A stretch of 57,964 nucleotides of DNA from Candidatus Firestoneibacteriota bacterium (GTDB lineage: Bacteria; Oederibacteriota; D2-FULL-39-29; JBBTED01): NCBI GenBank assembly GCA_038042445.1, contig JBBTED010000081.1, positions 1 through 57,964 of the forward strand. Reading direction: 5' to 3'. The notes below the pieces were generated by a model. It worked only from the letters and a program-made list of their open reading frames with translations, was not told the DNA's origin and did no database searches. Positions 16,406 to 57,591 of this stretch are shown here, in pieces (positions within the stretch are counted from its first letter, which is position 1; each line of letters begins with the position of its first letter). A program made the translations under genes and the position numbers.

Positions 16406-16461
16406 TGTAGTCGTCCGCATAGGCGGACAAAATTAAAACTGCTGATAAATCAGCAACTACA
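16406..16461. repeat. GTAG REP doublet, family B variant
   Basis: TGTAGTCGTCCGCATAGGCGGAC...GCTGATAAATCAGCAACTACA. Confidence 0.75.
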
Positions 16462-16469
16462 ATATTATT

Positions 16470-31514: not shown

Positions 31515-31550
31515 TAGCATACACCATACTTTTCGTCCAGTTTATCAACT

Positions 31551-31650
31551 TGTAGTTGCCGATTTATCGGCATAACATAATTTATAGTTATTGATTTATA
31601 TTTTAAAGATAAACTAACAAAAATTACTGCCGATAAATCGGCAACTACAT
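31551..31650. repeat. GTAG REP doublet, family B
   Basis: TGTAGTTGCCGATTTATCGGCA...TGCCGATAAATCGGCAACTACA. Confidence 0.9.
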
Positions 31651-33481: not shown

Positions 33482-33508
33482 GGGTTTTTTAGAAATAAAA
33501 TTTTAATT

Positions 33509-33588
33509 TGTAGTTGCCGATTTATCGGCATTTTTAAAATTGCCTACAAATACGCAACTATAAATTATGCCGATAAATCGGCAACTAC
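33509..33588. repeat. GTAG REP doublet, family B; supplies the stop codon of the RNase H gene
   Basis: Arms match 31551-31650; CTA at 33585-33587 lies within GCAACTACA. Confidence 0.88.
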
Positions 33589-34523
33589 AAATAACTCAGT
33601 TTTTTGGCTTTGCCTTTTTTACCTTCTATTTGGCGGATTGTTGAAAATGATTTTTTTATAAACCAAGGCCAGGGTTTTTTAGAAGAATACCATATTTTAA
33701 GCCAGTTTATTGTTTCTTTATCTCCTGCATTTCCAGAGCCTATTGATAAACCACTTAATATATATTCCGGATTTTCATTAATGGATTTTACTATTTTCTC
33801 TCTTTCTCTTTTTGCAATAAGTGAAGCTAATTTAGCCTCAAGATATTTGTCATCAGATTTTGGAGCAACAATAATTTCAGCGTTTTGCAAAGCAAGTGAA
33901 TCAAGAAATTTTTTAAGGGTATCGCCTATCCCATAATTATCAATTGTAATTCGACATTTTGATACATCAATATTTTTAACTAAAGATACTAATGCTTTTT
34001 GATATGTTACATCCATGATTTTATTTAGATTGTATTTATCTGCATCAGATGGTGAAATTTTTTCCTCAACAAACTTTAATCCATCTTTTAAAAAGAATGA
34101 AATTTTATTAAACAAATTATTCCAGTAATCATAAGTATGTGTTTTTTTAGTGTCTGCAATACCAACCAAATCTTTTAAAGATTGAAAAAGAATGCTCGGG
34201 ATTAGAACTCCAACAATATGTATATTTCCGACAACTTCTCCTTTGCCTGTTTCATCAAGCCCTATTAAAAATTCTTTTGATGGCTCAACAAAAACACTAC
34301 CAGCAATTTCATCAATATGATTTATTATTGGATTTTTTGAATCAGAACAAGTGGTATATAAAGTGCCATTTTTATAACAGGTTATTTTTCCATTCAAAAT
34401 TTTAATTCTGTAAATTTCACTTGCTGAATAAACAGTTTCTTCTATTCCACCTGCTTGTATCAAATATTTTTTTATTCCTTCTATTTTTTCGCTATTTAAA
34501 TTTATCCATTTTCTACCAATCAT
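33585..34523 (-). CDS. Type 2 ribonuclease H (HII/HIII family) with N-terminal extension
   Basis: IGLDETGKG, DTKK, IDNY, KSD, ASLIAK..R. Confidence 0.8.
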   Translation of the reverse strand: MIGRKWINLNSEKIEGIKKYLIQAGGIEETVYSASEIYRIKILNGKITCYKNGTLYTTCSDSKNPIINHIDEIAGSVFVEPSKEFLIGLDETGKGEVVGNIHIVGVLIPSILFQSLKDLVGIADTKKTHTYDYWNNLFNKISFFLKDGLKFVEEKISPSDADKYNLNKIMDVTYQKALVSLVKNIDVSKCRITIDNYGIGDTLKKFLDSLALQNAEIIVAPKSDDKYLEAKLASLIAKREREKIVKSINENPEYILSGLSIGSGNAGDKETINWLKIWYSSKKPWPWFIKKSFSTIRQIEGKKGKAKKLSYL

Positions 34524-36085: not shown

Positions 36086-36152
36086 TGTCATTCCTGCGAA
36101 AGCAGGAATCCAGAAAAATAAATACTGGATACCGCATCAAGTGCGGTATGAC
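36086..36152. repeat. REPIN-like element, family C
   Basis: TGTCATTCCTGCGAAAGCAGGAATCCAG...CTGGATACCGCATCAAGTGCGGTATGAC. Confidence 0.85.
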
Positions 36153-37653: not shown

Positions 37654-37692
37654 ATTTTTTGTAAATCCTCAGTGAACACCATTCCATTTCTT

Positions 37693-37809
37693 TGTCATTC
37701 CCGCATATCCCCTGTTTACTACATACAGGGGTAAAATCCAGCGGGAATCCATACAAAATGCTTCTGGATTCCTGCTGGAGTTTATCCGCCGTGGCGAGCA
37801 AGAATGACA
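37693..37809. repeat. Family C REPIN with nested hairpins
   Basis: TGTCATTCCCGC...GCGGGAATCCA / TGGATTCCTGCT...AGCAAGAATGACA; flanked by 11-bp direct repeats at 37648 and 37811. Confidence 0.8.
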
Positions 37810-37830
37810 CGTTCATATTTTACCCTAAAA

Positions 37831-38456: not shown

Positions 38457-39679
38457 TTGATTCTCTTTATTTGGACACTCCAATCTTTTGGACCTTTTTC
38501 TATATATTCCCATTCGTATTTTCCTTTTTGCTCTGCTTCAAATTGATAGTGTAATGGTTTAGGGTCATGGTCATTTATGATTTTTAAAGTATATCCCGAT
38601 TTTAAATTGTCCCATATATTAAAAATTTTCTCGTGCCTTTCAAAAGGTGGCATTTGCCTTAAATCAAGCTCAACAATTTTGCTGTTTTCTTGATCTGCAG
38701 GAGTAAAACAGCAATATCCAATTTTGTCGCATCCTTTTTTAACTTCACCCCATTCTTCTTTAGTTAAAATTTGTAGTGCTATCTGATAGAGAATATTATC
38801 CTCTTTAAAAATATGACTTTCAAGTTCTTTTGTCAAGTACTCACCTAATCCTATAATCTTTTTCTTGAAATCTGTAAATTCATATTGCTCAGAATTATTT
38901 GCGATTTTGAACAGCTCCTGTTTTCTCTTTCTGAATTCCAAATGATCTAATTTCATAATATTAGGTGGCTCAACTACATTATGTTTCTCAAGTGATGGAA
39001 ACAAAACATCTTCTTCTCTTTGGTGATGATTTTCTGCCTCAACCAAGTGATGCGCAATATCTTTTAACTTTTCCATATCATCAGCCATATCTTTAAAATT
39101 ATTCTTATTTTTTAGTCTTTCTATTAACCCCTTTAATTCACTCAAACTATTAAGGATAACTTTATGCTCCTCCATAAGAGTATTTACAGGATGCGGTGCA
39201 GACACTTCTATTCTTTTTGAAACCAACGTATCTCTTAAAACATCAAGGTGTATGTCACATAAACTTTTCCTAATCTCATCATGCGAAACACCTTCTTTTA
39301 TTAATTCCTGCTCTATAAATCCTAATGTTGTAACATCAACTGACTGTAGAATTTTCTTTGCCTTTTCTTTTGTTGCTTCGGATATTTTATCCTCTTTTAA
39401 CTCCTTTAATAATTCTTTAAAAGCTTCTTTCTTGTTCTCTTTTGAAGCAACTTTTTTAATATTTAAAATCCATTCATCCGGACCTTCTTTTTCATAAGCA
39501 ATATCAAACCCTCCCTTTGCATTTAACATATAAACCAAAGGCATAGGATTAAATTCAAAAATAACCCTTAAAGTTTCCTGTTCTTTAAGTTCATCAATAC
39601 TCGGAAAAATCAAGCTTTCCCTTTTGCTATGCTCCAACCCTCTAACATCAATTATTTTTACTGTATTCATTTTACTCAC
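38453..39679 (-). CDS. DUF2249-DUF438-hemerythrin-DUF2249 protein
   Basis: IDVRGL and LDLRQMPPFERH..IF..NDHDPKPL termini; LCDIH; HPV..LMEEH, HHQREE..LFP, H, HIFKE hemerythrin motifs. Confidence 0.8.
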   Translation of the reverse strand: MSKMNTVKIIDVRGLEHSKRESLIFPSIDELKEQETLRVIFEFNPMPLVYMLNAKGGFDIAYEKEGPDEWILNIKKVASKENKKEAFKELLKELKEDKISEATKEKAKKILQSVDVTTLGFIEQELIKEGVSHDEIRKSLCDIHLDVLRDTLVSKRIEVSAPHPVNTLMEEHKVILNSLSELKGLIERLKNKNNFKDMADDMEKLKDIAHHLVEAENHHQREEDVLFPSLEKHNVVEPPNIMKLDHLEFRKRKQELFKIANNSEQYEFTDFKKKIIGLGEYLTKELESHIFKEDNILYQIALQILTKEEWGEVKKGCDKIGYCCFTPADQENSKIVELDLRQMPPFERHEKIFNIWDNLKSGYTLKIINDHDPKPLHYQFEAEQKGKYEWEYIEKGPKDWSVQIKRIK

Positions 39680-40341
39680 CTCTCTTCTATTTTTAACCAG
39701 TTATTAATTTCTTTTCTTTCTATAAGCATATTTTTTACTTTTTCCATCCAGAGATTCTGAAATTCTTTTTTTTCTTCTTCTTTTGCTGCTTCCCATATAA
39801 CTTTTTCTAAAAGTTCTCCTAATTTTTCTTTTTTTTCGTCAGGAAATGGAATTGCCCATGGATAAAATTTGACTAAAACTGTTTTATTGTTATCTAATCT
39901 TTTAAATTCAAAGTATACAGCTTCTGAATCTGGTTTATTTGGATTAAATTTAAGCAAATCTTTCCTCTTAAATTTATGACCCAATCCTTTAAAACCCGTA
40001 TTTGTAGCTGCCCCAGTTAAAAAGCTAAATACTTGTCCCATAACTCCGTACACACCTTCATCTTGCTCGCCATATACAGTAACAGCAATTTCTCCTCTTA
40101 CTGGAATCTCATCATTATAAAGTCTATCCATCGCCTCCTGACAACACAAATACGCACCTGCTACAGTAGGACAAGAATGTCCAGCCATTTTTACTACATC
40201 GGCAAATGTAAACTCTAAAACTCCGCTATCCTTAAACGCACCCAAAATTTCTGCCAATGGCTCTTTAAATTTGATTGGCTTAACTTCTTTAAAAAAATCT
40301 CTAAAATTATTATCCATGTTTACACCATTCCTTTCAGTCAT
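39676..40341 (-). CDS. FmdE-like protein
   Basis: GHSCPTVAGAY, GVMGQV..LTGA, GFKGLG; true start may be MDNN. Confidence 0.7.
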   Translation of the reverse strand: MTERNGVNMDNNFRDFFKEVKPIKFKEPLAEILGAFKDSGVLEFTFADVVKMAGHSCPTVAGAYLCCQEAMDRLYNDEIPVRGEIAVTVYGEQDEGVYGVMGQVFSFLTGAATNTGFKGLGHKFKRKDLLKFNPNKPDSEAVYFEFKRLDNNKTVLVKFYPWAIPFPDEKKEKLGELLEKVIWEAAKEEEKKEFQNLWMEKVKNMLIERKEINNWLKIEER

Positions 40342-42780: not shown

Positions 42781-42811
42781 AAATGATACTACATTTGTAT
42801 CATTTTGTCAA
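42781..42811 (-). promoter_or_regulatory. rrf2 promoter with overlapping 9-7-9 palindrome
   Basis: TTGACA, 17 nt, TATCAT; AAATGATAC-N7-GTATCATTT at 42781-42805. Confidence 0.7.
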
Positions 42812-42868
42812 GTAAAAAATTAAAGATTGTTTTTAATTAAGTAAAGTTGTAAAATAATTTTTAGGAAA

Positions 42869-43648
42869 ATGAAATCACTATACGAAATGAATCCAAGCGA
42901 AATATTAACAGCAAAGAAATATTCTGGCTGTGTATTTATCCCTATATCCCCATGTTATGAATGGCATAGCTTTCACTTGCCTGTTGGAACAGATGCTCTT
43001 ATTTCTGAACGAATTTGTGAACTTGTTGCAGAAAAAATTGGTGGCGTTTATTTTAAAGCATTATCTTTAGGTGTGGATGCAATTAGATCTGAAAGCCAAC
43101 TTTTACAATGGGGGTTTAAAAAAAATGCTAAGATTTTTGGAATGAATTTTCCTGAAATCTCTTTTTTTAGTGAATATTGCACTAAAAAAGAAATGGTTAT
43201 AATAATAAACAATCGGCTTAGAGCTGTTAAAGAAACAGGGTTTAAAATAGCATTTATTGTTAATAACCATGGAGGTGTTGGTCAGCAACAAATACTTGAA
43301 AAAATTTGTAGTAAATGGAATTCTAAAAATTTTAAAGTGGAGTATATATCTACAGGAAAATTTTGCACTATAAATAATTGTTCGCTAAATATTGGTGGTC
43401 ATGCCGGATTATCAGAAACACATCGGCTTATGGCATTTCGCCCTGATTTAGTTGATATTGTAAAACTTCCGAAAAATAATTTAAAAGTGTGCAAAACAGG
43501 AATTCTTCACAATAAACCAATGATTGAAGAACAGTATCATCCAAAGAATGTTTCTAAAACACTATCAGCCAACTTAAGAGAAAATATTATTAATAATTTT
43601 GTTACCTATATTCAGAAAAACTATTTCCACCAAAAGAAAGCTATTTAA
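42869..43648 (+). CDS. Creatininase family amidohydrolase
   Basis: EWHSFHLPVGTD, NNHGG, GGHAGLSET. Confidence 0.85.
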   Translation: MKSLYEMNPSEILTAKKYSGCVFIPISPCYEWHSFHLPVGTDALISERICELVAEKIGGVYFKALSLGVDAIRSESQLLQWGFKKNAKIFGMNFPEISFFSEYCTKKEMVIIINNRLRAVKETGFKIAFIVNNHGGVGQQQILEKICSKWNSKNFKVEYISTGKFCTINNCSLNIGGHAGLSETHRLMAFRPDLVDIVKLPKNNLKVCKTGILHNKPMIEEQYHPKNVSKTLSANLRENIINNFVTYIQKNYFHQKKAI

Positions 43649-43720
43649 AAATATATTAGTATTAATAAATACATAAGAAAAATCATTTTTCCACAACGCA
43701 ATAATACAGTAAAAAATGAA

Positions 43721-43802
43721 TTGACAATTTAATGTAATTATTCTATAAATACTATAATAGAGGGAAAACTTAAAAGAGTGGGCAACAAACCCACTCTTTT
43801 AA
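43721..43802 (+). promoter_or_regulatory. rimP promoter and leader hairpin, copy A
   Basis: TTGACA-17-TATAAA; stem AAAAGAGTGGG/CCCACTCTTTT, conserved in copy B. Confidence 0.75.
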
Positions 43803-43884
43803 GTTAGTGGCAAAAAAAACAATGGTTTGGTGGAAAAACATGGTGTTACCATTCCCTTTGGTCACAGACCATAGTTAAAGAATT

Positions 43885-44328
43885 ATGAGTATAGCTGAAA
43901 AAGTTAAAGATATTATTAAACCTATTATGACAGAAGTTGAATTAGTTGATGTAGAGTATAAAAAAGAAGGTTCTGACTGGATTCTTAGGGTTTATATAGA
44001 TAAGCCCTGTGGTGTAACTTTAGATGACTGTAAAGCTATAAGTGATACAATTGAGCCAATAATTGATGCAGAAAATATTTTGCAAAATAAATATTTTCTG
44101 GAAGTATCATCTCCAGGCTTAAGCAGACCATTTAAAACTAAAGAGGGTTTTAAGCGAAATATTGGAAAACTTGTTGATTTAAGTCTATATAATTCAATAC
44201 ATGAACAAAAACATTTAAGTGGAATAATTAAAGAAATAAAAGAAGAAGGAATTATATTAGAACTTACAGATAAAAGTGTTCAGGAAATATTGTTAAGCAA
44301 TGTAGCTAAAGCTACACTTGTAATATAA
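43885..44328 (+). CDS. rimP: Ribosome maturation factor RimP, copy A
   Basis: ELVDVEY, LRVYIDK, DDC, LEVSSPG. Confidence 0.92.
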   Translation: MSIAEKVKDIIKPIMTEVELVDVEYKKEGSDWILRVYIDKPCGVTLDDCKAISDTIEPIIDAENILQNKYFLEVSSPGLSRPFKTKEGFKRNIGKLVDLSLYNSIHEQKHLSGIIKEIKEEGIILELTDKSVQEILLSNVAKATLVI

Positions 44329-44362
44329 AAGCGTAAAATTAAAAGCGCAAAGCAAAAAACTA

Positions 44363-44818
44363 ATGAACAGACAATTTATAGAAGCACTTGAACAAATAGG
44401 CAGAAGTAAAAATATTGAAAAAACTGTGCTTATATCTGCTTTGCAAGAAGCTCTTATTTCTGCATCTAAAAAAACCTTTGGAACAGGACTTAATATAAGT
44501 ATAGACTTCACTGAAAAAACTGGTGATTTCAAAATATATCTAAATAAAAAAGTCGTAGAGACAGTTTCTGATCCTAATATTGAAATTTCATTAGAAAACG
44601 CAAAATTACAAAAAAGCACAATTTCTATTGATGATACTTTGCAAGTGAAAATACCACAGGAAATGCTTAATAAAATTGCAGTCAGAACAGCAAAATCAGT
44701 TATAGTTCAAAAAGTAAGAGAAGCAGAACGCAATCATATATTTGAAGAATTCAACAATCAAATTGGAAACATAATAAATAGTACTGTAATACAAAAAGGC
44801 GGCTCTGATGTAATTTGA
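44363..44818 (+). pseudogene. nusA: Truncated nusA (about 145 N-terminal codons, then junction-derived tail GGSDVI)
   Basis: Near-identical to 47536.. until CAAAAA at 44797, then reads into antisense hrb. Confidence 0.9.
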
Positions 44819-44916
44819 AAAACAGTATTTACAATCTGGCCATTAATTTTATCGCCTTTTCTGGAACACACCACATACATTCCATAACTAATTTTATTTA
44901 AAACCTGCAGGTTCAT
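44798..44916 (-). pseudogene. hrb: 5' fragment (about 40 codons) of hrb
   Basis: [40 protein letters not shown] matches the start of 36967..37653. Confidence 0.9.
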
Positions 44917-44936
44917 TTTTTTGTTTTATCCTAAAA

Positions 44937-45566
44937 TTATTTAAAAATCTCTCCTGTTTCTTTACTCCAAAATAATAAATCTAAATGACTAATTGGTATT
45001 TTAATTTTACTTGAAAACTTTTTCATTTTTTCTTCTATTTCATAATATTTTTGTTTTGTCAAATTTTCAGGAATTCCTTTAATTACTTTTAACAATACTA
45101 AATTTTTTAATATATGCCTATCAAGAATTGCAATATTTTCACCAAACCCAATATTTCTAAGAAAATGGCTTGCTTCTTTAAATCCAATCCCCTTTACGCT
45201 TTTAACAAGCCATTCTCTTTTGTCAAAAACATTGTTAATTTTCTTAATCTTAGATTTAATATCCATCTTATCCCTGTCTACAAACAGCTTTCTTGCTTCA
45301 ATAATATAACTTGCTTTTTTATATTTAAATCGGACGCCAACTAAGTTTTTAAGGATTTGATTATATTTCCCGGTTATCAATAAATTATCTTTTACTATTT
45401 TTATAATTGCCTGCCAGCATACTTTTGCCTTAGACTGAGGTGTTAATATGCAAAATAATAACTCAGCAAATATATCTTTTTCACTACCTTTATTCCATAC
45501 ACATTTAAATTCTTCAAGCCTCGAATTAATTTCTTCTCTTTTTTTAAAATATATATTTCTTATCAA
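44937..45566 (-). CDS. ogg: 8-oxoguanine DNA glycosylase/AP lyase (archaeal/Thermotoga-type Ogg)
   Basis: ELLFCILTPQS, GIGFKEASHFLRNIG, AILDRHI, DLLFW...GEIFK; TTG start uncertain. Confidence 0.88.
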   Translation of the reverse strand: MIRNIYFKKREEINSRLEEFKCVWNKGSEKDIFAELLFCILTPQSKAKVCWQAIIKIVKDNLLITGKYNQILKNLVGVRFKYKKASYIIEARKLFVDRDKMDIKSKIKKINNVFDKREWLVKSVKGIGFKEASHFLRNIGFGENIAILDRHILKNLVLLKVIKGIPENLTKQKYYEIEEKMKKFSSKIKIPISHLDLLFWSKETGEIFK

Positions 45567-45575
45567 TTTTATCTA

Positions 45576-46877
45576 TTACTTTGTTTTTATATTCAGATTG
45601 TATAATTCTATTGGATTATCCCAAAACCATTTTTTTGCCATATCTAATGCTTGTGTTTCAGTGAATTGTCCGTCTTTAATTCTATTTGCTAAAACTCTTG
45701 CTATATCTTCTCTTGCCATAACTAAATGACCATACACTTTTTCTACAGGCATAGAATAATCTCCTCCAAATGCAAGTATTTTATTTGTAGGTATTAAATC
45801 TATTGCTTCATCTAAGCCAGACATAGCAAATTTTTGTGAAATTATATGTGTCCAGCAAAAATTTAACCATACATTCGGAAAACCTTTACCAAGCATAAGT
45901 GTTTCTCTTACCCATGGATACCCTAAATGGTAAATATCAAAACGAACTTTTGGATGACGTTGCAATATTGGTATCATAAGAAGTGGATCTAATTGCCTAA
46001 AATCTTCCCAATATCCTGTATGCACTGCTATAACTAAATTCTGTTCTCCTGCGAATCTTATTAACTCATCAATAATATAATCACGAAGTGAATTTGTGCC
46101 AATAAAATGTGGAGGTTGTGGTGGTATTTTATTCATACTTCCTGCTTTTATCTTTTTAAATATTGAAATTGCTTCTTGTCTATTTGGAATCTCATAAGGA
46201 TGTGACATCATTTTCAATCCAACAGCACCTTCTGATTTTTTCTTCAATATATATTTTCTGCAAGCATCCAAATAACAATCAACTGAATTTATTACCAAAT
46301 CTGGATCAAATGAAGGACGTAATATATCTATTTCAATCCTATTTCGTAATGGCATACGCAGGACTGTAGTAAGCAAATCAGTAGAAGCTGGATCAATCTT
46401 TTCTATATTATTTCTTTTATCATCCCAATATATTCCCTGGTTAAGACACGTTTTTATATTGCAGGCTTTTCGCAAAACTTTTTCATAAATACCTGGTTTA
46501 TTTGCCTTTTTTATTGCTTCAGAAATAGGTTTGTATGTGCTTTCATTTACATCAGAAAATCCATAGAATTTTTCTGTAGATATAAGAACTGCCTTAGAAT
46601 AAGATGTCCACCTGATTTTTTTCCAATATGGCGCAAACATTTTCCATCGGATATCAAGAGAAATATCCTGATTAAAAAGACTCAAATATTGTTCTTCAGT
46701 CATACCTGCCATTATTAAATCTCTATAGGTATAATGTGAAAACAAAGTAAAAACATCTACTTTTTTATTTAGCCTATCTTTTTCTGATGGTAAATGCTCA
46801 TGACAATCAATAATTTCCCATTTGGACATAGCATCAAATAAATTCTTTTCTAAATTCGATAATTTATATGTATACAT
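45576..46877 (-). CDS. Amidohydrolase superfamily protein (uronate-isomerase-like)
   Basis: IIDCHEH, GLK, VHTG, IYH..YP, FGGD; start MYTY at 46877 with GGAGG RBS. Confidence 0.8.
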   Translation of the reverse strand: MYTYKLSNLEKNLFDAMSKWEIIDCHEHLPSEKDRLNKKVDVFTLFSHYTYRDLIMAGMTEEQYLSLFNQDISLDIRWKMFAPYWKKIRWTSYSKAVLISTEKFYGFSDVNESTYKPISEAIKKANKPGIYEKVLRKACNIKTCLNQGIYWDDKRNNIEKIDPASTDLLTTVLRMPLRNRIEIDILRPSFDPDLVINSVDCYLDACRKYILKKKSEGAVGLKMMSHPYEIPNRQEAISIFKKIKAGSMNKIPPQPPHFIGTNSLRDYIIDELIRFAGEQNLVIAVHTGYWEDFRQLDPLLMIPILQRHPKVRFDIYHLGYPWVRETLMLGKGFPNVWLNFCWTHIISQKFAMSGLDEAIDLIPTNKILAFGGDYSMPVEKVYGHLVMAREDIARVLANRIKDGQFTETQALDMAKKWFWDNPIELYNLNIKTK

Positions 46878-46952
46878 AATTACTCGCCTCCTATACTTGA
46901 ATATTAGCATATATTGTATTTTTTTTCGAGTATTTTAAAAGAATAAAAACAG

Positions 46953-47032
46953 TTGACAATTCAACATAATTATTCTATAAATAATATAGTTACGGGAAAG
47001 ACTAAAAGAGTGGGCACAAACCCACTCTTTTA
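46953..47032 (+). promoter_or_regulatory. rimP promoter and leader hairpin, copy B
   Basis: TTGACA-17-TATAAA; TAAAAGAGTGGGCACAAACCCACTCTTTTA. Confidence 0.75.
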
Positions 47033-47051
47033 CATTAGTGGTGAAAAAATA

Positions 47052-47495
47052 ATGAGTATTGCTGAAAAAGTTAAAGCTCTCATTAAACCTATGATAACAG
47101 AAGTAGAACTGGTTGATGTTGAGTATAAAAAAGAGGGTTCTGACTGGTTTCTCAGGGTTTATATAGATAAGCCCTGTGGTGTAACTGTAGATGACTGTAA
47201 AGCTATAAGTAATACAATTGAGCCACTAATTGATGTAGAAAATATTTTGCAAAATAAATATTTTCTGGAAGTGTCATCTCCAGGCTTAACCAGACCATTG
47301 AAAAGCAAAGAAGATTTTAAGCGAAATATCGGCAAGCTTGTTGACTTGAATTTATATGCTTCAACACTTGGACAAAAGCAGTTAAGTGGAATAATTAAAG
47401 AAATAAAAGAAGAAGGTATTATATTAGAATTTAAAGATAAAAATATTCAGGAAATATTATTAAGTAATGTAGCCAAAGCTACACTTGTAATATAA
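47052..47495 (+). CDS. rimP: Ribosome maturation factor RimP, copy B
   Basis: Same motifs as copy A; start MSIAEK at 47052. Confidence 0.93.
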   Translation: MSIAEKVKALIKPMITEVELVDVEYKKEGSDWFLRVYIDKPCGVTVDDCKAISNTIEPLIDVENILQNKYFLEVSSPGLTRPLKSKEDFKRNIGKLVDLNLYASTLGQKQLSGIIKEIKEEGIILEFKDKNIQEILLSNVAKATLVI

Positions 47496-47504
47496 ATTAA
47501 AAAC

Positions 47505-47528
47505 CGCAGGCTAAAGCCTGCGACTACC
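47505..47528. repeat. Single family A REP, 7 nt upstream of the nusA ATG
   Basis: CGCAGGCTAAAGCCTGCGACTACC; absent at the same site in copy A. Confidence 0.88.
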
Positions 47529-47535
47529 AAAAACT

Positions 47536-48786
47536 ATGAATAGACCATTTTTAGAAGCACTTGAACAAATAGGCAGAAGCAAAAATATTGAAAAAACTGT
47601 GCTTATATCTGCTTTGCAGGAAGCTCTTATTTCTGCATCTAAAAAAACTTTTGGAACAGGACTTAATATAAGTATAGACTTCACTGAAAAAACCGGTGAT
47701 TTTAAAATATATCTAAACAAAAAAGTTGTAGAAACAGTTTCTGACCCTAATATTGAAATTTCATTAGAAAACGCAAAAATACAAAAAAGCACAATTGCTA
47801 TTGATGATACTTTGCAAGTGGAAATACCACAGGAAATGCTTAATAAAATTGCAGTCAGAACAGCAAAATCAGTTATAGTTCAAAAAGTAAGAGAAGCAGA
47901 ACGCAATCATATATTTGAAGAATTCAACAATCAAATTGGAAACATAGTAGCTAGTACTGTAATACAAAAAGAAGGTGAAGATTTTATAATTGATGTAGGT
48001 GGAGTTGATGCAATTTTACTTCGCAAGGATCAGGTATACAAAGAAAACGTATACTCAGGAATGCGACTGAAATTTTACATACTTTCTGTTAAAAAATTTT
48101 CTAAAGGTCCACAGATTTTTCTATCAAGAGAGCATCCTAATTTTATCAAAAAACTTTTTGAATTAGAAGTACCTGAAATTACAGATAAAATAGTGAGTAT
48201 AAAAAATTTAGTGCGAGACCCCGGCTATAGGACCAAAATGTTAGTATATTCAGAAAATAAAAATGTAGATCCAGTAGGTGCCTGTGTAGGAATAAGGGGT
48301 TCACGCGTGCAGGCAATAGTTAAAGAACTCATGGGTGAAAAAATTGACATCATACAGTGGGATGCTGATATAAAAACTTTAATAATTAATGCCTTTAATC
48401 CTGCCAAAATAATTTCTGTGGAAATCAATGAACAGCAAAAATCCGCCCGTGTAATTGTGCCAGATGACCAGATTATATTAGTGATAGGTAAAAAAGGCCA
48501 GAATATACGTCTAACTGAAAGACTTATAGGTTTAAATATTCGTATATCATCAGAAACTGAAGCTAAAAAAGAAAATATATTGCCAAAAGACGAATTAAAA
48601 ATAAACTCTATAGAACAAATAGATGGGATAAGCAAAAAACTTGCAGAAAAAATAATGTCTTCCGGATTTAAAACATTAGAGGATTTAAGCAAATTAGATA
48701 TCCAAGCTCTTTGTAAAATTCCTGGAATTGGAGAAAAGACTGCAGAGAAAATAATATCTAATATAAAAAAATCTATAGCAAAATGA
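47536..48786 (+). CDS. nusA: Transcription factor NusA
   Basis: NTD, S1, RDPGYRTK, DPVGACVGIRGSRV, IGKKGQN, C-terminal HhH. Confidence 0.96.
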   Translation: MNRPFLEALEQIGRSKNIEKTVLISALQEALISASKKTFGTGLNISIDFTEKTGDFKIYLNKKVVETVSDPNIEISLENAKIQKSTIAIDDTLQVEIPQEMLNKIAVRTAKSVIVQKVREAERNHIFEEFNNQIGNIVASTVIQKEGEDFIIDVGGVDAILLRKDQVYKENVYSGMRLKFYILSVKKFSKGPQIFLSREHPNFIKKLFELEVPEITDKIVSIKNLVRDPGYRTKMLVYSENKNVDPVGACVGIRGSRVQAIVKELMGEKIDIIQWDADIKTLIINAFNPAKIISVEINEQQKSARVIVPDDQIILVIGKKGQNIRLTERLIGLNIRISSETEAKKENILPKDELKINSIEQIDGISKKLAEKIMSSGFKTLEDLSKLDIQALCKIPGIGEKTAEKIISNIKKSIAK

Positions 48787-50840
48787 AAAAAAAAGTTTTT
48801 ACATTGGCAAAAGAAATTGGAATTACCAGTAAAGAGCTTTTAGTAAAACTCAACGAGTTAAATATACCTGCTAAAAGCCATATGGTTGTTCTTGATGAAA
48901 AAACAGTAGAACTTGTGTTGAGCAAATTAACTCCTGCTTCTACTTCTAAAAAAACAAAATCCCCCAAGATAGAAAAAATAACACCTGTGCCAGTTAAAGA
49001 AAAAGCTGTTAAAACGCCGATAAATCGGCAACTACATGAAAAACCTATTGCAGAAAAACAGGAGCCACAAAAACCAATAATAGTTGCACGACCTAAAATA
49101 AAAATAAATGAAACATTGACAATAATGCAGCTTGCAGACAAATTAAATGTAAAAGCTATAGATTTAATAAAAAAATTGCTGTCCCGCGGAATAATGGCAA
49201 CTATAAATCATCGTATAGATACAAAAATGGCAGAATTAATTGCAAATGAGTATGGATACGATATGGAAATCATATCTGTATATAGTGAAGCACTTTTTGA
49301 AGAAGATAATTTAGTAGAAGAAAAATTAGTCCATAGAGCTCCAGTAGTAACTATAATGGGACATGTAGACCATGGAAAAACTTCATTACTTGATGCAATA
49401 AGAAATACAAATGTTATTTCAACAGAATCTGGTGGAATTACTCAGCACATCGGTGCATATAAAGTAAAACTACCGAAAGGTGAAGTAGTATTTCTTGATA
49501 CTCCTGGACATGCAGCATTTACTGCTATGCGTGCCCGTGGTGCACAAGTTACTGATATAGTAGTATTAGTAGTTGCTGCAGACGATGGTGTAATGCCGCA
49601 AACAATAGAAGCTATAGACCACGCTAACGCTGCTAAAGTTTCAATAGTAGTTGCAATAAATAAAATTGATACACCTGGTGCTAATCCTGATAAAGTAAAA
49701 CAGGAATTGGCAAAATATAGTCTTGTCCCGGAAGAATGGGGAGGCAAAACAATATTTGCAAATGTATCTGCAAAAAAAGGCACTGGATTGGAAAATTTAC
49801 TTGAATTGCTTTTGTTGGAAGCTGAAATGCTTGAGTTAAAGGCAAATCCAGACAGACCAGCTAAAGGCGCAATAGTAGAAGCAAGATTAGATAAAGGCCG
49901 CGGACCTGTAGCCACAGTTCTTGTGCAAAATGGAACATTAAAACTTGGCGACTCTTTTGTAGCTGGAATAGTCTCAGGAAAAGTAAGAGCATTAATAACA
50001 GACAAAGGAGAAAGAATAAAAATTGCCGGACCTTCTACACCTGTTGAAATTATTGGTTTTTCAGAACTTCCACAAGCAGGAGATACTTTTCATGTTCTTA
50101 GAGATGACCATTTAGCACGCGAAATAAGTTTAAGACGCCAGGAATTACAAAAAGAAACAAAAATAAAACACGTTTCTCATATAACACTTGAAGATTTATA
50201 CAAAGAAATACAAAAAGGTGAAATAAAAGACTTAAAAATAATAATCAAAGCTGATGTTCAGGGTTCTGTTGAAGCATTGGTTGACAGTATGGAACGTTTA
50301 AGCACAGAAACTGTAAAACTAACAGTAATTCACGGCGGAGTTGGGCATATAAATGAATCCGATATAATGCTCGCTTCAGCTTCAAATGCAATAATTATAG
50401 GATTTCATGTTGAAATATCTACTGAAATATCTGACTTAGCAAAAAAAGAAGAAGTAGATTTTAGCATTTATCAAATAATATACGAAGCTGTAAATAATGT
50501 AAAACTTGCAATGGAAGGTCTGCTTGCTCCTAAATTAGTTGAAGTAATTACAGGCAAAGCAGAAGTAAGACAGATTTTTAAAACATCAAAAACAGCTGCT
50601 ATATCGGGCTCTTATGTTTCTGAAGGAAAAATTACAAGAGGGAATATTATCCGTGTATTAAGAAGTGGTGAAATTGTACACAAAGGCAAAATAGATTCTC
50701 TTAGAAGATTCAAGGAAGATGTAAAAGAAGTGACAACTGGATATGAATGTGGAATACAAATTACAGATTTTCCAAATATGCAGTCTGGAGATATAATTGA
50801 AGCATACGAAATTCAAAAAGTGTTGCAAAAACTAAAATAA
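48783..50840 (+). CDS. infB: Translation initiation factor IF-2
   Basis: MGHVDHGKTSLLD, GGITQHIG, DTPGHAAF, NKID, KADVQGS. Confidence 0.97.
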   Translation: MKKKVFTLAKEIGITSKELLVKLNELNIPAKSHMVVLDEKTVELVLSKLTPASTSKKTKSPKIEKITPVPVKEKAVKTPINRQLHEKPIAEKQEPQKPIIVARPKIKINETLTIMQLADKLNVKAIDLIKKLLSRGIMATINHRIDTKMAELIANEYGYDMEIISVYSEALFEEDNLVEEKLVHRAPVVTIMGHVDHGKTSLLDAIRNTNVISTESGGITQHIGAYKVKLPKGEVVFLDTPGHAAFTAMRARGAQVTDIVVLVVAADDGVMPQTIEAIDHANAAKVSIVVAINKIDTPGANPDKVKQELAKYSLVPEEWGGKTIFANVSAKKGTGLENLLELLLLEAEMLELKANPDRPAKGAIVEARLDKGRGPVATVLVQNGTLKLGDSFVAGIVSGKVRALITDKGERIKIAGPSTPVEIIGFSELPQAGDTFHVLRDDHLAREISLRRQELQKETKIKHVSHITLEDLYKEIQKGEIKDLKIIIKADVQGSVEALVDSMERLSTETVKLTVIHGGVGHINESDIMLASASNAIIIGFHVEISTEISDLAKKEEVDFSIYQIIYEAVNNVKLAMEGLLAPKLVEVITGKAEVRQIFKTSKTAAISGSYVSEGKITRGNIIRVLRSGEIVHKGKIDSLRRFKEDVKEVTTGYECGIQITDFPNMQSGDIIEAYEIQKVLQKLK
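49016..49037. repeat. Family B REP embedded in frame in infB
   Basis: GCCGATAAATCGGCAACTACAT, 22/22 identical to 31629-31650. Confidence 0.9.
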
Positions 50841-53228: not shown

Positions 53229-54041
53229 ATGCAAAAACTATTTTACGAAAAACCGCGATTTAAGCTATACCAAGCAGATTGCTTAGAAATTTTAAATTCC
53301 CTGCCTGAAAACTTGGTGGATATGATTTTTGCTGATCCTCCTTATTTTTTATCTAGTGGGAGTTTTACTTGTCAAAATGGTAAAATGGTGAGTGTTAAAA
53401 AAGGCGACTGGGATTTGACTAATGGGACGGAAAAAAATTTTGAATTTCATAATAAATGGATAAAGGCGTGCAGACGAGTATTAAAGCCAAATGGAACAAT
53501 TTGGATTAGTGGAACTTATCACTCAATTTATCAATGCGGATTCGCCTTAGAAATAAATAATTACCATTTTTTAAACGATATTGCTTGGTTTAAACCAAAT
53601 GCTTCGCCAAATTTAAGCTGTCGATTTTTTACCGCAAGTCATGAAACTTTGCTTTGGGCGAGAAAAGAAAAAAAAGGCAAGCATACTTTTAATTATGAAC
53701 TAATAAAAAATGGTGATTGGTCAGAAGATCAATTAAAAAAGCCAGGATTACAAATGCGTTCTGTTTGGTCAATTAATACACCAAAACCTATTGAAAAAAA
53801 ATTTGGCAAACACCCAACCCAAAAATCTTTTGATTTGTTAAAAAGAATTGTTTTAGCAAGCACAAACAAGGGTGATGTAATTTTAGATCCTTTTACTGGA
53901 AGCTCAACAACAGGACTTGCGTCCTATCTTTATGGCAGAAACTTTATTGGAATTGACACAGAAAAACAGTATTTAGATTTATCAATCAAAAGATTCGAAG
54001 AATTGGACAAGAATTTAAAAAATAAACTTTCTAAAAAATAG
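53229..54041 (+). CDS. Beta-class amino-DNA methyltransferase, DpnA/M2.MboI-like
   Basis: MIFADPPYFLS, VSVKKGDWD, GTYH, HPTQK, LDPFTGSSTT. Confidence 0.9.
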   Translation: MQKLFYEKPRFKLYQADCLEILNSLPENLVDMIFADPPYFLSSGSFTCQNGKMVSVKKGDWDLTNGTEKNFEFHNKWIKACRRVLKPNGTIWISGTYHSIYQCGFALEINNYHFLNDIAWFKPNASPNLSCRFFTASHETLLWARKEKKGKHTFNYELIKNGDWSEDQLKKPGLQMRSVWSINTPKPIEKKFGKHPTQKSFDLLKRIVLASTNKGDVILDPFTGSSTTGLASYLYGRNFIGIDTEKQYLDLSIKRFEELDKNLKNKLSKK

Positions 54042-54042
54042 T

Positions 54043-54687
54043 ATGAAAATAGTCACAAGGACAACAGCAATCAACAATTTGAAAAAGCATGTCGGACAAA
54101 ATTTGCGAAAACTTGCCTTGCAACATGGAATTACAACCTACGAAACAGGAAAGCAAAACAAAGGCTGGAAAGGTTTAGTTTTGGAAATATTGGCGGGATT
54201 GGAAAATAATGTTTCAAAAGCACCAAATGGGCTTTCTTATGAATTGAAATCAGTTAGTTTTCACAGTGTCAAAAATGAACTTGTGCCAAAGGAAACAATG
54301 GCAATCACAATGATCAATCCAGAAGAATTAAAAAAACACTCGTTTTTTGAAAGCCATTGTTGGGCGAAATTAAAGTCTATAGTTTTTTGTGCGATAATGT
54401 GGCACGGCACAAATTCCGAAAAAGCGGAATTGTTAAAAGTGACAAGTTTAGATTTTGCTGAAAATGATGAACTTATAAAAGAAATTAAAGCGGATTACGA
54501 TTTTATTCGTGAGAAACTAACCAAACATGGTTTTGAAAGTTTGACTGGCAAAGACGGGAAATGGATACAGGCGAGGACAAAAGGAACTGGCGGAATAAAT
54601 CCAAAAACAGGAAAACGTCGACCAATTACTCGTGCGTTTTACGCAAGAACAGGTTTAGTTAAAAAGATTTTTAAAACCGCAAGCTAA
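54043..54687 (+). CDS. MutH/Sau3AI-family endonuclease, single domain
   Basis: NKGWKG..LE, ELKSV, PKETMAIT, IKADYDFIR, QARTKG, RAFY. Confidence 0.75.
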   Translation: MKIVTRTTAINNLKKHVGQNLRKLALQHGITTYETGKQNKGWKGLVLEILAGLENNVSKAPNGLSYELKSVSFHSVKNELVPKETMAITMINPEELKKHSFFESHCWAKLKSIVFCAIMWHGTNSEKAELLKVTSLDFAENDELIKEIKADYDFIREKLTKHGFESLTGKDGKWIQARTKGTGGINPKTGKRRPITRAFYARTGLVKKIFKTAS

Positions 54688-54837: not shown

Positions 54838-54860
54838 TGCCTATAAATCGGTAACTACAT
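54838..54860. repeat. Degenerate family B REP
   Basis: TGCCTATAAATCGGTAACTACAT. Confidence 0.6.
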
Positions 54861-56109: not shown

Positions 56110-56445
56110 ATGAAAAAGATACCTAAATTTAAAACTGAAGAAGAAGAATCGCTATTTTGGGATATTCACAGTCCACTCGATTATTCTGGTGAATTTATGG
56201 ATGTGAAAGAACCTTTTGAATTTGCTCCTAATCTCTTAAAAAAAGCTGCTGAAAGACGTGAGGTGAGAAAACGCTCTCTCACCTTAAGAATGGGACAAAG
56301 ACAAATTGATTTAGCTAAGGTTATTGCTAAATACAGAGGACTTGGTTACCAGACTTTAATGAGAATATGGGTCATTGAAGGAATCCGCCAAGAGATTAAG
56401 ACACATCCAGAGATAGGAAAACTCCTTGCCACAAAGTACAGATAA
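56110..56445 (+). CDS. BrnA/CopG-like antitoxin
   Basis: IPKFKTEEEE..FWD, LTLR, GLGYQTLMR. Confidence 0.8.
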   Translation: MKKIPKFKTEEEESLFWDIHSPLDYSGEFMDVKEPFEFAPNLLKKAAERREVRKRSLTLRMGQRQIDLAKVIAKYRGLGYQTLMRIWVIEGIRQEIKTHPEIGKLLATKYR

Positions 56446-56484: not shown

Positions 56485-57591
56485 ATGTTAATTAAGCATA
56501 TACACGGTGGCGATGTAAAGAAAACTTTATCATGCACTTCGAAAAGGTGGGTCTGTGATTTTAGTGCTAATATTAATCCGTTGGGAATGCCTAAATCTGT
56601 AGAATTGGCTTTAAAAAAGCATATTTCTTCTTTGGTTAATTATCCTGAAATTGGGTCTAAAGAACTTTGCCGGGAAATTGCAAAATATCATAATATAAAA
56701 CCTAAAAACATAATTGTTGGAAATGGTTCGGGTGAACTTATTTATTTGTTTGCAAGAGCTTTTAAACCTAAATCAGCTATTATTCCAGTACCAACATTTA
56801 GTGAATATGAAATGGCTTTAAAAACTCAAAACACTAAGATGTTTTTTCTGAAGCTTTCTCAAAAAGATGAGTTTAAATTGTCGATTGATAAAATCTCCCC
56901 TAGCCCCTCTTTTACAAAGAGGGGGAATCCACTAAAATTCCAGAATACCAAAAAAACTGATGTGTTTTTTATATGTAATCCAAATAATCCTACTGGAGTA
57001 CTAACAGAAAAAGAAGTGCTTTTAAAATTAGTGAGTATGAATAAATTTTTATTTATTGACGAGGTTTTTATGGATTTTGTTGACAAACAAGAAAAATTCA
57101 CTATGTTAGATGTAGCTATAAGACAAAAAAATATATTTATTTTGAAATCACTTACAAAATTATTTGCTTTGCCGGGACTTCGAATTGGCTATGGAGTAGC
57201 TCATCCTGAAATTATAGAAAGACTAAAATGTATGCAGGAGCCATGGAATGTAAATACTTTAGCGCAAATATCTGGGATATATGCTTTAAAAGACAAAACT
57301 TATATTAAAAATAGTATTCTTCAAAATAAAGTAGCAAGAGAACATTTATATAATGAATTAACTAAAATAAATGGACTAACACCTTACTATCCATACGCTA
57401 ATTTTATTTTTATTGAATTAATAAGTAAAAATGCGAACTCTAAAGATATAGCTTTAAAAATGTTAAGATTAGGATTACCTATACGCGACTGCTCCTCATT
57501 TAGAAGTCTTGGCAGTAAATTTATTAGAATTGCTGTTAAATCCAGACAAGAAAATAATCGGTTAGTAAAAACACTTAAAAATGTGGTTTGA
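56485..57591 (+). CDS. cobD: L-threonine-O-3-phosphate decarboxylase
   Basis: HGG, DFSANINPLG, GNGSGELI, PTFSEY, CNPNNPTG, DEVF.DF, SLTKLFALPGLRIGY. Confidence 0.9.
   Translation: MLIKHIHGGDVKKTLSCTSKRWVCDFSANINPLGMPKSVELALKKHISSLVNYPEIGSKELCREIAKYHNIKPKNIIVGNGSGELIYLFARAFKPKSAIIPVPTFSEYEMALKTQNTKMFFLKLSQKDEFKLSIDKISPSPSFTKRGNPLKFQNTKKTDVFFICNPNNPTGVLTEKEVLLKLVSMNKFLFIDEVFMDFVDKQEKFTMLDVAIRQKNIFILKSLTKLFALPGLRIGYGVAHPEIIERLKCMQEPWNVNTLAQISGIYALKDKTYIKNSILQNKVAREHLYNELTKINGLTPYYPYANFIFIELISKNANSKDIALKMLRLGLPIRDCSSFRSLGSKFIRIAVKSRQENNRLVKTLKNVV
56891..56935. repeat. Family F palindrome embedded in frame in cobD
   Basis: AAATCTCCCCTAGCCCCTCTTTTACAAAGAGGGGGAA matches intergenic 20293-20328. Confidence 0.85.

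What the first reader, a model, noticed from the sequence alone, without database searches (positions are those of the whole stretch)
49016..49037. Intergenic REP sits in frame inside the essential gene infB
An exact 22-nt copy of the family B REP (identical to 31629-31650) lies in the IF2 N-terminal linker and encodes (T)PINRQLH. With the cobD and HD cases, different palindrome families are entering coding sequences and becoming peptide. This parallels Rickettsia palindromic elements but involves GTAG-type REPs. It may be an active route to new protein sequence, or place a regulatory hairpin in the mRNA.
Basis: seen in the sequence. Interest (0 to 1): 0.75.

Follow-up and report, generated by a model that had tools for sequence, protein, structure and literature searches.

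The report
Palindromic repeat copy translated inside infB
A short palindromic repeat that normally sits between genes has landed, in frame, in the floppy linker of translation initiation factor IF2, where it most likely adds a few harmless amino acids; the sighting is real, but this kind of event is already described.

Summary
Window 49016-49037 is an exact 22/22 copy of the intergenic repeat at 31629-31650. It lies in frame in infB (48783-50840, 685 aa) and encodes T78-H85 (TPINRQLH).

- **What the repeat is.** It is a GTAG-tagged REP, with GTAGTTGCCGATTTATCGGC on the minus strand. The window holds 7 copies. Four form two inverted doublets, and only the infB copy lies deep inside a gene.
- **Where it sits.** It is in the middle of the IF2 inter-domain linker. 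That linker is 25-86 aa long in 38 aligned IF2s and has AlphaFold pLDDT below 50 for residues 52-100.
- **What it probably does.** The mRNA hairpin is weak (-7.5 kcal/mol). No partner arm, promoter, terminator or Rfam match accompanies it. My best reading is a single REP unit of about 27 nt (9 codons), tolerated as a near-neutral passenger.
- **What could not be tested.** The nearest IF2 found is only about 58-60% identical, so the presence/absence test in close relatives could not be run.
- **Independent support.** The same REP sits in a PmbA/TldD loop of a groundwater MAG and its 99% twin, but in none of 119 other homologs.
- **Novelty.** Intragenic GTAG REPs in flexible linkers were described by Di Nocera et al. 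2013, so this is a new member of a known kind.
- **Side result.** The same 20-mer occurs in 18 assemblies whose titles name several phyla.

The parts
49016..49037 (-). Exact 22-nt REP copy. The GTAG tag and hairpin read GTAGTTGCCGATTTATCGGC on the minus strand. On the coding strand it reads GCCGATAAATCGGCAACTACAT.
   Evidence: 22/22 with 31629-31650; 0 matches in 100 shuffles. (GTAG followed by a 5-bp stem and 4-nt loop).
49011..49037 (+). Inferred full REP-derived stretch, about 27 nt, equal to codons 77-85 (KTPINRQLH). It is the 22-mer plus the A-rich 5' flank AAAAC. The boundaries are fuzzy by a base or two.
   Evidence: in 61 copies from other genomes the flanks have a consensus (-5 A 50/61, -4 A 37/61, -3 A 31/61, -1 C 41/61, +1 A 45/61). 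The infB copy matches at all five of these positions.
48783..50840 (+). infB, translation initiation factor IF2, 685 aa.
   Evidence: TIGR00487, E 7e-244; Pfam domains; thousands of IF2 homologs; among the 120 best listed, identity tops out near 58-60%.
48936..49082 (+). IF2 inter-domain linker (residues 52-100), predicted disordered and hypervariable. The REP sits in its middle.
   Evidence: pLDDT below 50 for 52-100, no secondary structure. (linker 25-86 aa in 38 IF2s; mean column identity 0.30, against 0.59 and 0.62 in the flanking domains). (similarity to solved IF2 begins at residue 92).
31550..31650 (.). Intergenic inverted REP doublet (arms 31550-31571 and 31629-31650), REPIN/BIME-like. 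Its right arm is the exact twin of the infB copy.
   Evidence: (I12). (121 nt including the doublet folds at -41.7 kcal/mol, z -8.1).
33508..33590 (.). Second intergenic inverted REP doublet. The CTA at 33585-33587 of its right arm supplies the TAG stop codon of the minus-strand RNase HII-like gene 33585-34523.
   Evidence: (I11). (-45.5 kcal/mol, z -12.9). for the ORF end and the sequence.
16441..16462 (+). Family copy with a compensatory stem change (GCTGAT...ATCAGC). It is paired with a different GTAG hairpin at 16407-16428. Intergenic.
54839..54860 (+). Decayed intergenic singleton with 2 mismatches that break the stem.
47536..48786 (+). nusA, directly upstream. Its stop overlaps the infB start. 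Gene order is rimP-nusA-infB-rbfA.

Best explanation
A single unit of a GTAG-tagged REP was copied into the DNA that encodes the disordered linker between the two IF2_N domains of IF2. The unit is about 27 nt: the 20-nt core plus short conserved flanks. Because it spans nine whole codons and entered in one of the four stop-free reading phases, the gene stayed open. The repeat is read through as KTPINRQLH. It persists because this linker tolerates almost any length and sequence, so it is a near-neutral passenger rather than a regulatory or adaptive device.

Shown: the identity of the repeat, its frame, its position in a hypervariable predicted-disordered linker, the weakness of its hairpin, and the fact that the same family sits in a protein loop of another genome but not in that protein's relatives.

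Inferred: that it arrived by insertion, by which enzyme (a RAYT-type HUH transposase acting on single-stranded DNA, or recombination between copies), and that it is neutral.
For: - **Not chance.** The match is an exact 22/22 with an intergenic copy. There are 7 family copies in the window and 0 matches in 100 shuffles.
- **REP anatomy.** The family has a GTAG tag, a short G+C-rich hairpin and inverted doublets. Of 16 perfect GTAG hairpins in the window, 14 are intergenic or touch a gene edge, 1 lies in the first 8 codons of a maximal ORF, and only the infB copy is deep inside a gene.
- **Tolerant site.** Linker length is 25-86 aa (median 55; 54 here, 46 without the 8 residues of the exact 22-mer) in 38 IF2s. 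Mean column identity is 0.23 at residues 78-85, against 0.59-0.62 in the flanking domains. pLDDT is below 50 for residues 52-100.
- **Peptide is not ancestral IF2 sequence.** None of 120 IF2 homologs carries any REP-frame pentapeptide.
- **Frame arithmetic.** The conserved flanks extend the unit to 49011-49037, which is 27 nt and exactly codons 77-85. Reading the 20-mer directly, two of its six frames contain stops (TAA, TAG).
- **Weak structure.** The hairpin is -7.5 kcal/mol, against -41.7 and -45.5 for the stretches holding the intergenic doublets. The 102-nt mRNA context has z -2.0.
- **Independent parallel.** In locus L046 the same 20-mer encodes ADKSATT in a loop of a PmbA/TldD protease. 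It is present in L046 and its 99% twin P0122 and absent from the other 119 homologs, including those at 85-87% identity. That loop carries various other inserts.
- **Literature.** Di Nocera 2013 lists intragenic GTAG REPs and proposes that they are neutral in flexible linkers.
Against: - No close relative of this IF2 was found: best identity is about 58-60%, and searches added only two near-identical fragments that do not cover the site. No presence/absence polymorphism at this site is therefore shown. Against the nearest homologs the alignment shows no clear indel.
- No RAYT/Y1 transposase was found among the 56 window ORFs scanned, nor among the 139 ORFs of 110-330 aa (out of 205 open frames of at least 110 aa) scanned from the 63 loci. 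The mobilising enzyme is unidentified.
- No remnant of a second arm lies within 100 nt upstream. The upstream score is lower than in 99.8% of control windows. If REPINs (doublets) are the mobile unit, a singleton needs a further explanation.
- The copy is undecayed (20/20 core). In locus L057 two REP copies are 23/23 identical inside domain repeats whose flanks match at only 167 of 326 aligned columns. This hints at an active maintaining process rather than pure neutrality.
- Neutrality itself is untested.
Confidence: 0.7

Rival explanations
1. The REP is kept in infB because the nucleic-acid hairpin does something. As RNA it could act as a processing, stability or pause element within the rimP-nusA-infB-rbfA transcript. 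As DNA it could be a binding site for a REP-binding protein.
For: The hairpin folds better than shuffles on its own (z -3.7, 1 of 200 shuffles as good). The core is undecayed. In L057, REP copies inside a gene are far better conserved than their flanks. REPs are reported to act in mRNA stabilisation and protein binding (abstracts of PMC3733652 and PMC2817692, listing).
Against: The stem is only 5 bp at -7.5 kcal/mol, weaker than the local intergenic single copy (-8.6) and far weaker than the stretches holding the doublets (-41.7 and -45.5). No terminator-like site was found, and 3 promoter-like sites against 3.6 expected. There is no Rfam match. The 102-nt context is unremarkable (9 of 200 shuffles fold as well). 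None of the 63 loci with this REP is an infB locus, so there is no recurrent association with infB.
Confidence: 0.12
2. The inserted peptide is an adaptive gain of protein sequence. It would change a property of the IF2 N-terminal disordered region, such as partner binding or condensate behaviour.
For: INRQLH is compositionally unlike the K/E/P/V-rich linkers of the other 37 IF2s. Abstracts seen in the listing report that the IF2 N-terminal disordered region matters in cold stress (10.1101/2025.02.02.631968) and that IF2 interacts with NusA (PMC12297416).
Against: The peptide is dictated entirely by the repeat's DNA sequence. The same frame (PINRQL) occurs in unrelated contexts. The residues lie in a pLDDT<50 segment. 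No relative shares it (0 of 120).
Confidence: 0.06
3. The insert is an assembly or sequencing artefact, a short repeat wrongly joined into infB.
For: Reads were not available. Short repeats can mislead assemblers. In one MAG this repeat sits at contig ends (L007, L028, L043).
Against: The ORF stays open, and its flanks are unique, continuous IF2 sequence. A separately predicted 52-aa protein fragment, P0258, lies on an 89-kb contig. It begins MKNLLQK, which is the out-of-frame reading from the ATG formed by the last two bases of the REP plus the next G, and then continues with IF2 residues identical to the window. The junction at the REP's 3' end therefore exists in another predicted record. 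Whether that record is independent of the window's source is unknown.
Confidence: 0.04

Closest known systems
Intragenic GTAG-tagged REPs (Di Nocera, De Gregorio, Rocco 2013, BMC Genomics 14:522; most numerous in Opitutus terrae)
   Same: The element has a GTAG tetranucleotide and a short palindrome. The family is mostly intergenic, with single units and inverted dimers. The GTAG end supplies a TAG stop to a neighbouring gene (seen here at 33585-33587). Occasional copies lie wholly inside known genes and encode 6-9 residues. The authors propose that these are neutral in flexible linkers or loops.
   Different: The host gene differs. Supplementary file 3 of that paper lists SUI1 and IF1 but has no hit for infB or IF-2. 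The organism is an unidentified low-G+C (about 31%) lineage. This particular core is shared by assemblies whose titles name several phyla.
REPIN-RAYT systems (Bertels and Rainey 2011; Nunvar 2010; Ton-Hoang 2012; Corneloup 2021)
   Same: Inverted REP doublets fold into long hairpins. The GTAG plus hairpin is the kind of substrate that HUH Y1 transposases recognise on single-stranded DNA (abstract of PMC8266576).
   Different: No RAYT gene was found in the window or in the 63 loci. The infB copy is a singleton without a partner arm. REPIN-RAYT systems are described as mostly vertically inherited (abstract in the listing), whereas this core occurs under titles from several phyla.
Rickettsia palindromic elements (RPE; Ogata et al. 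2000; that paper is recalled and was seen here only as cited in PMC3733652)
   Same: These are palindromic repeats inserted in frame into protein-coding genes, including essential ones, and translated.
   Different: As I recall, RPE-1 elements are about 100-150 bp and encode tens of residues. The short RPE-4 and RPE-6 are assigned to the CGTC-tagged class, not the GTAG class, in PMC3733652. The unit here is about 27 nt and GTAG-tagged.
E. coli REP/BIME
   Same: Short imperfect palindromes, often in alternating orientation in intergenic regions.
   Different: They are described in the abstracts as extragenic. Their sequence is unrelated, and no Rfam or other match ties them to this family.

Membership tests
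GTAG-tagged REP superfamily (Di Nocera 2013) | Short (20-40 bp) palindrome able to form a stem-loop | tested here: met
   (5-6 bp perfect stem, 4-nt loop). (-7.5 kcal/mol in infB, -8.6 for the twin at 31629).
GTAG-tagged REP superfamily (Di Nocera 2013) | GTAG tetranucleotide at one end of the palindrome | tested here: met
   The minus strand reads GTAGTTGCCGATTTATCGGC.
GTAG-tagged REP superfamily (Di Nocera 2013) | Many dispersed copies, predominantly intergenic | tested here: met
   There are 7 copies in 58 kb. Six of the 7 lie outside genes or touch only a stop codon. A genome-wide count was not possible because the window's genome was not among the rows.
GTAG-tagged REP superfamily (Di Nocera 2013) | Units often close together in opposite orientation (dimers) | tested here: met
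   Doublets at 31550/31629 and 33508/33569. The infB copy itself is a singleton.
REPIN-RAYT system | A cognate RAYT (Y1 HUH transposase, Pfam Y1_Tnp) gene flanked by the REPs | tested here: inconclusive
   No Y1_Tnp hit in 25 + 31 window ORFs. None in the 139 ORFs of 110-330 aa scanned, out of 205 open frames of at least 110 aa, from the 63 loci. The whole genome was not available.
REPIN-RAYT system | The mobile unit is the inverted doublet (REPIN) | tested here: not met
   For the infB copy, no second arm lies within 100 nt on either side. The upstream score of 9 is lower than in 99.8% of 1142 control windows.
Rickettsia palindromic elements (RPE-1 type) | Element of about 100-150 bp encoding tens of residues (size recalled) | tested here: not met
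   The REP-derived stretch is 22-27 nt, or 8-9 residues.
MITE (TIR element made by a DDE transposase) | Target-site duplication flanking the insert | tested here: not met
   There are no direct repeats abutting 49011-49037. The flanks read GCTGTT and GAAAAACC.
Described structured RNA families (Rfam 15) | A match at the family's gathering score | tested here: not met
   No matches in the whole window.

The most novel reading that the evidence does not exclude
This REP core is not a lineage-bound passenger. It would be part of a horizontally spreading, still active repeat system shared across phyla. The identical 20-mer occurs in 18 assemblies titled Elusimicrobiota, Deltaproteobacteria/Thermodesulfobacteriota, Ignavibacteria and others. 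The system would repeatedly write itself into the same kind of site in coding DNA, namely disordered linkers and surface loops: the IF2 linker, a PmbA loop, and RHS, fn3 and Ig-like surface proteins. It would also keep its copies homogeneous even inside genes, as suggested by the 23/23 identity of two copies in L057 whose flanks match at only about half of the aligned columns. That would be a site-selective or gene-conversion-like process that continually feeds fixed short peptides into proteins, essential ones included.
Probability: 0.2. Interest if true: 0.6.

Novelty: new member of a known kind. Interest (0 to 1): 0.3.

Why it matters
This is a clean example of a selfish or semi-domesticated repeat entering a universally essential translation factor without breaking it, because it landed in a disordered linker. 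It adds IF2 to the published list of REP-decorated proteins and supports the published view that such inserts survive where structure is unconstrained. It is not a new mechanism.

The side results are more useful for follow-up:
- One 20-nt REP core is shared under assembly titles from several phyla.
- A PmbA/TldD loop carries different palindromic inserts in different relatives.
- Two intragenic copies are much better conserved than the coding sequence around them.

Each of these bears on the open question of how REPs spread and are maintained.

Tried and rejected
- **Second REP arm near the infB copy.** Local alignment of the 100 nt on either side against both arm types found nothing. The upstream score of 9 is lower than in 99.8% of 1142 control windows. 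Alignment to the whole doublets adds only one point beyond the 22-mer.
- **Indel test against relatives.** Among the 120 best-listed IF2 homologs identity tops out near 58-60%. The linker is not alignable and no clear gap appears.
- **Exhaustive search with residues 1-180.** Nothing closer was found, except two short fragments predicted from frame-shifted sequence: P0245 (100%) and P0258 (91%).
- **Word search with residues 45-125.** Only P0258 was returned.
- **Cluster look-up of P0258, P0245 and IF2.** It could not be made because the database was switched off.
- **Rfam over the whole window.** 0 matches.
- **Promoter and terminator scan of 48600-49400.** 3 promoter-like sites against 3.6 expected, and 0 terminators.
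- **RAYT search.** No Y1_Tnp among the window ORFs, nor among the 139 ORFs of 110-330 aa scanned from the 63 loci. The other 66 of 205 open frames were not scanned.
- **Paralogous rimP-nusA spacers as a natural with/without-REP pair.** This was not clean. The duplicate carries about 30 nt of unrelated sequence at the REP position.
- **infB among the 63 REP loci.** tblastn found none.
- **Chance identity.** Rejected.
- **Mis-called start that would make the REP extragenic.** Rejected, because the N-terminal IF2_N domain upstream is conserved and in frame.

Full report
**Observation.** The 22 bases at 49016-49037 (GCCGATAAATCGGCAACTACAT) are identical to 31629-31650. A search allowing three mismatches finds seven copies in the window: 16441, 31550(-), 31629, 33508(-), 33569, 49016 and 54839. 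None of 100 dinucleotide-preserving shuffles gave any match. The ORF 48783-50840 is IF2. It matches NCBIfam TIGR00487 at E 7e-244 over residues 105-682. Pfam finds IF2_N twice, GTP_EFTU, EF-G_D2 and IF-2. The translation reads ...KEKAVK-TPINRQLH-EKPIAEK..., which places the repeat at codons 78-85. The gene starts on the nusA stop codon. Its first 50 residues form an IF2_N domain that is conserved in homologs. The repeat is therefore internal to the protein and not a mis-annotated leader.

**What the repeat is.** On the minus strand the element reads GTAG-TT-GCCGA-TTTA-TCGGC, a GTAG tag followed by a short G+C-rich hairpin.
- Four of the seven copies form two inverted doublets in intergenic DNA (31550/31629 and 33508/33569). 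The stretches holding them fold into long hairpins of -41.7 and -45.5 kcal/mol, with z -8.1 and -12.9.
- One copy is paired with a different GTAG hairpin (16407/16441). One is a decayed singleton (54839).
- A second GTAG family (GTAG[C/T]CGCAGGCTTTAGCCTGCG) has nine copies (eight with a perfect stem, plus 23940-23962 with a variant stem), all intergenic.
- Of 16 perfect GTAG hairpins in the window, 14 are intergenic or touch a gene edge. One lies within the first eight codons of a maximal ORF and is probably upstream of the true start. Only the infB copy is deep inside a gene.
- At 33585-33587 the tag supplies the TAG stop of the RNase HII-like gene. This behaviour is described for GTAG REPs.
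- No Rfam family matches anything in the window.

**Extent of the insert.** No trace of a second arm lies within 100 nt upstream or downstream. However, 61 copies from other genomes show conserved flanks: A at -5 (50/61), -4 (37/61) and -3 (31/61), C at -1 (41/61) and A at +1 (45/61). The infB copy matches at all five positions. The REP-derived stretch is therefore most likely 49011-49037. That is 27 nt and falls exactly on codons 77-85 (KTPINRQLH). I mark this as inference, and the boundaries are fuzzy by a base or two. A unit of nine codons preserves the frame. Read directly, two of the six frames of the core contain stops (TAA, TAG), so four orientation-and-phase combinations can survive in a gene.

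**The site.** In an alignment of 38 IF2s the segment between the two IF2_N domains is 25-86 residues long (median 55; 54 here). It is K/E/P/V-rich and poorly conserved. Mean column identity is 0.30 for the linker and 0.23 at residues 78-85, against 0.59 and 0.62 in the flanking domains. An AlphaFold2 model built on that alignment (mean pLDDT 76.9) gives pLDDT below 50 and no secondary structure for residues 52-100, between confident domains. Similarity to solved IF2 structures starts only at residue 92. None of 120 IF2 homologs contains any pentapeptide from any open frame of the repeat.

**Hairpin and signals.** In the mRNA the repeat forms a 5-bp stem with a UAAA loop at -7.5 kcal/mol. The 102-nt context is unremarkable (z -2.0; 9 of 200 shuffles fold as well). 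No terminator-like site was found, and promoter-like sites do not exceed expectation.

**Relatives.**
- The best-listed IF2s in the 5.8-billion-protein collection are only about 58-60% identical, and their linkers cannot be aligned residue for residue.
- An exhaustive HMMER search of 1.84 billion representatives with residues 1-180 found nothing closer, apart from two short fragments predicted from frame-shifted sequence of the same or a near-identical organism (P0245, P0258).
- P0258 starts MKNLLQK. That is the out-of-frame reading from the ATG formed by the last two bases of the REP plus the next G. It then continues with residues identical to the window's IF2. The 3' junction of the repeat therefore exists in another predicted record, on an 89-kb contig. 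I could not establish whether that record is independent of the window's source.
- The cluster look-up that might have shown more could not be made.

- By record title, seven assemblies are Elusimicrobiota, including Endomicrobiia (38 loci). Seven are Deltaproteobacteria or Thermodesulfobacteriota (19 loci). One is Ignavibacteria (3 loci). There is also one locus each from a Patescibacteria assembly, an Anaerotignum assembly and an unclassified 'bacterium'. I did not verify the taxonomy.
- About four chance hits would be expected in 596 Gb for this pattern (my estimate). The Anaerotignum hit, inside an S-layer-type protein, is probably one of them.
- The window's own genome was not among the rows.
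- In many loci the partner arm is a variant (GTAGTTGCCCATTTATGGGC), so the doublets are imperfect.
- Flanking genes are ordinary and diverse. In related MAGs the repeat sits at orthologous positions: downstream of a pseudouridine synthase gene in L015, L023, L024 and L047, and upstream of ksgA in L021 and L032.
- No Y1_Tnp/RAYT domain was found among the 139 ORFs of 110-330 aa scanned from these loci. The other 66 of 205 open frames were not scanned. None was found among the 56 window ORFs scanned either. The mobilising enzyme is therefore unidentified.

**Intragenic copies elsewhere.** Seven of the 64 matches, in six loci, lie deep inside long open frames.
- Five of these loci have Pfam support: L046 (PmbA/TldD protease), L013 (DUF2341/Ig/fn3 surface protein), L030 (RHS-repeat protein), L057 (fn3/Big protein, two copies) and L039 (SLH protein, probably chance). 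L031 has no Pfam match.
- L046 provides the presence/absence evidence that infB lacks. The heptapeptide ADKSATT, coded by the 20-mer, is present in L046 and its 99% twin P0122. It is absent from the other 119 homologs, including those at 85-87% identity.
- It lies in a loop where distant homologs have nothing and close relatives carry other inserts, such as ...PLTLILSPKGRGKGEG....
- In L057 the two copies, with 23 identical bases, sit at equivalent positions in two tandem domain repeats. The flanking 300 nt of those repeats match at only 167 of 326 aligned columns. That suggests repeated insertion at one kind of site, or homogenisation.

**Interpretation.** The simplest account is that one REP unit was copied into the linker-coding DNA of infB in an open phase and is carried as a near-neutral passenger. 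I put this at about 0.7. A role for the hairpin as RNA or DNA (about 0.12), an adaptive peptide (about 0.06) and an assembly artefact (about 0.04) are not excluded, but they have little support. The arrival mechanism is inferred, not shown. It could be single-strand HUH transposition of the kind reported for TnpA-REP/RAYT (abstract of PMC8266576), or recombination between copies.

**Comparison with what is known.** Di Nocera et al. 2013 (PMC3733652; passages and supplementary file 3 read) define GTAG- and CGTC-tagged REP superfamilies.
- They report REPs wholly inside known genes in several species, most numerous for the GTAG class in Opitutus terrae.
- They note that single units encode a few residues, and they identify the short Rickettsia RPE-4 and RPE-6 as CGTC repeats.
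- They argue that such inserts may be neutral because they lie in flexible linkers or loops.
- Their table lists SUI1 and IF1. My search of it for 'initiation factor', 'IF-2', 'infB' and 'elongation factor' found no IF2 entry.
- A full-text search for palindromic elements together with infB gave no report of a repeat in infB among the 12 papers listed.

The present case is thus a new member of a known kind: a new host gene in an unidentified low-G+C lineage.

The claim that other palindrome families in this window also enter genes holds for cobD. A 44-nt copy (56890-56933) of the intergenic repeat at 20292-20335 encodes ...ISPSPSFTKRGNPLK..., and it coincides with a 13-residue gap in the alignment to solved CobD 1LC5. 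The 'HD case' is doubtful.

**Verdict.** The finding is real and correctly described, but ordinary in kind. Interest is 0.3. The more promising threads are the multi-phylum distribution of one REP core and the hints of site preference or homogenisation inside genes.

Noticed in passing
loci L001-L063: The identical 20-nt REP core occurs in 18 assemblies whose titles name Elusimicrobiota/Endomicrobiia, Deltaproteobacteria/Thermodesulfobacteriota, Ignavibacteria, Patescibacteria and others. It is often paired with a variant arm, GTAGTTGCCCATTTATGGGC.
   Followed up: partly
L046:1088-2440 (-), residues about 138-150: A loop of a PmbA/TldD protease is an insertion hot spot. Distant homologs have no insert. 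Close relatives carry different short inserts (for example PLTLILSPKGRGKGEG and SGLRTPNSKLK). L046 and its 99% twin carry the REP-coded ADKSATT.
   Followed up: partly
L057:2001-2020 and 2334-2353: Two REP copies at equivalent positions of two tandem domain repeats in a large fn3/Big protein are 23/23 identical. The flanking 300 nt match at only 167 of 326 aligned columns. This suggests repeated insertion at one site or gene conversion.
   Followed up: partly
window 56890-56933 (in cobD 56485-57591) and 20292-20335: A different palindromic repeat (hairpin CCCCTCTTTTACAAAGAGGGG) lies inside cobD and encodes ISPSPSFTKRGNPLK. The alignment to solved CobD 1LC5 shows a 13-residue gap there, so it is an insertion.
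   Followed up: partly
window 40165-40186 (ORF 39676-40341, minus strand) vs 36916-36937: There is a 20/22 match between an intergenic hairpin and a coding stretch that encodes GHSCPT. It lies in the ORF next to the HD-domain gene, not in that gene. It may be a conserved motif or chance rather than a repeat insertion.
   Followed up: partly
window 43708-44818 vs 46940-47828; 37535-38456 vs 44798-45563: Segmental duplications. There is a second rimP plus a truncated nusA (151 aa), 77-94% identical to the operon copy. There is also a duplicated ogg region (160-aa fragment versus the 209-aa gene). At the rimP-nusA spacer the operon copy has a GTAG REP (47505-47527), while the duplicate has about 30 nt of unrelated sequence.
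   Followed up: partly
window about 42800-47000: Gene orientation switches from almost all minus to all plus here, and cumulative GC skew reaches its minimum. This may be a replication origin or simply a strand switch. No dnaA was seen.
   Followed up: no
window 33585-33587: The GTAG tag of the REP at 33569-33590 supplies the TAG stop codon of the minus-strand RNase HII-like gene 33585-34523.
   Followed up: yes
window 36085-36152 and L028:743-807: Another pair of small hairpin repeats (ATTCCTGCGAAAGCAGGAAT and ATACCGCATCAAGTGCGGTAT) matches a locus of an Endomicrobiia MAG at 82% over 68 nt. More than one repeat family is therefore shared with that group.
   Followed up: no
window 53229-54687: A CcrM-like adenine methyltransferase lies next to a MutH/Sau3AI-like endonuclease, a probable type II restriction-modification pair. 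A CopG-like antitoxin ORF follows at 56110-56445.
   Followed up: no
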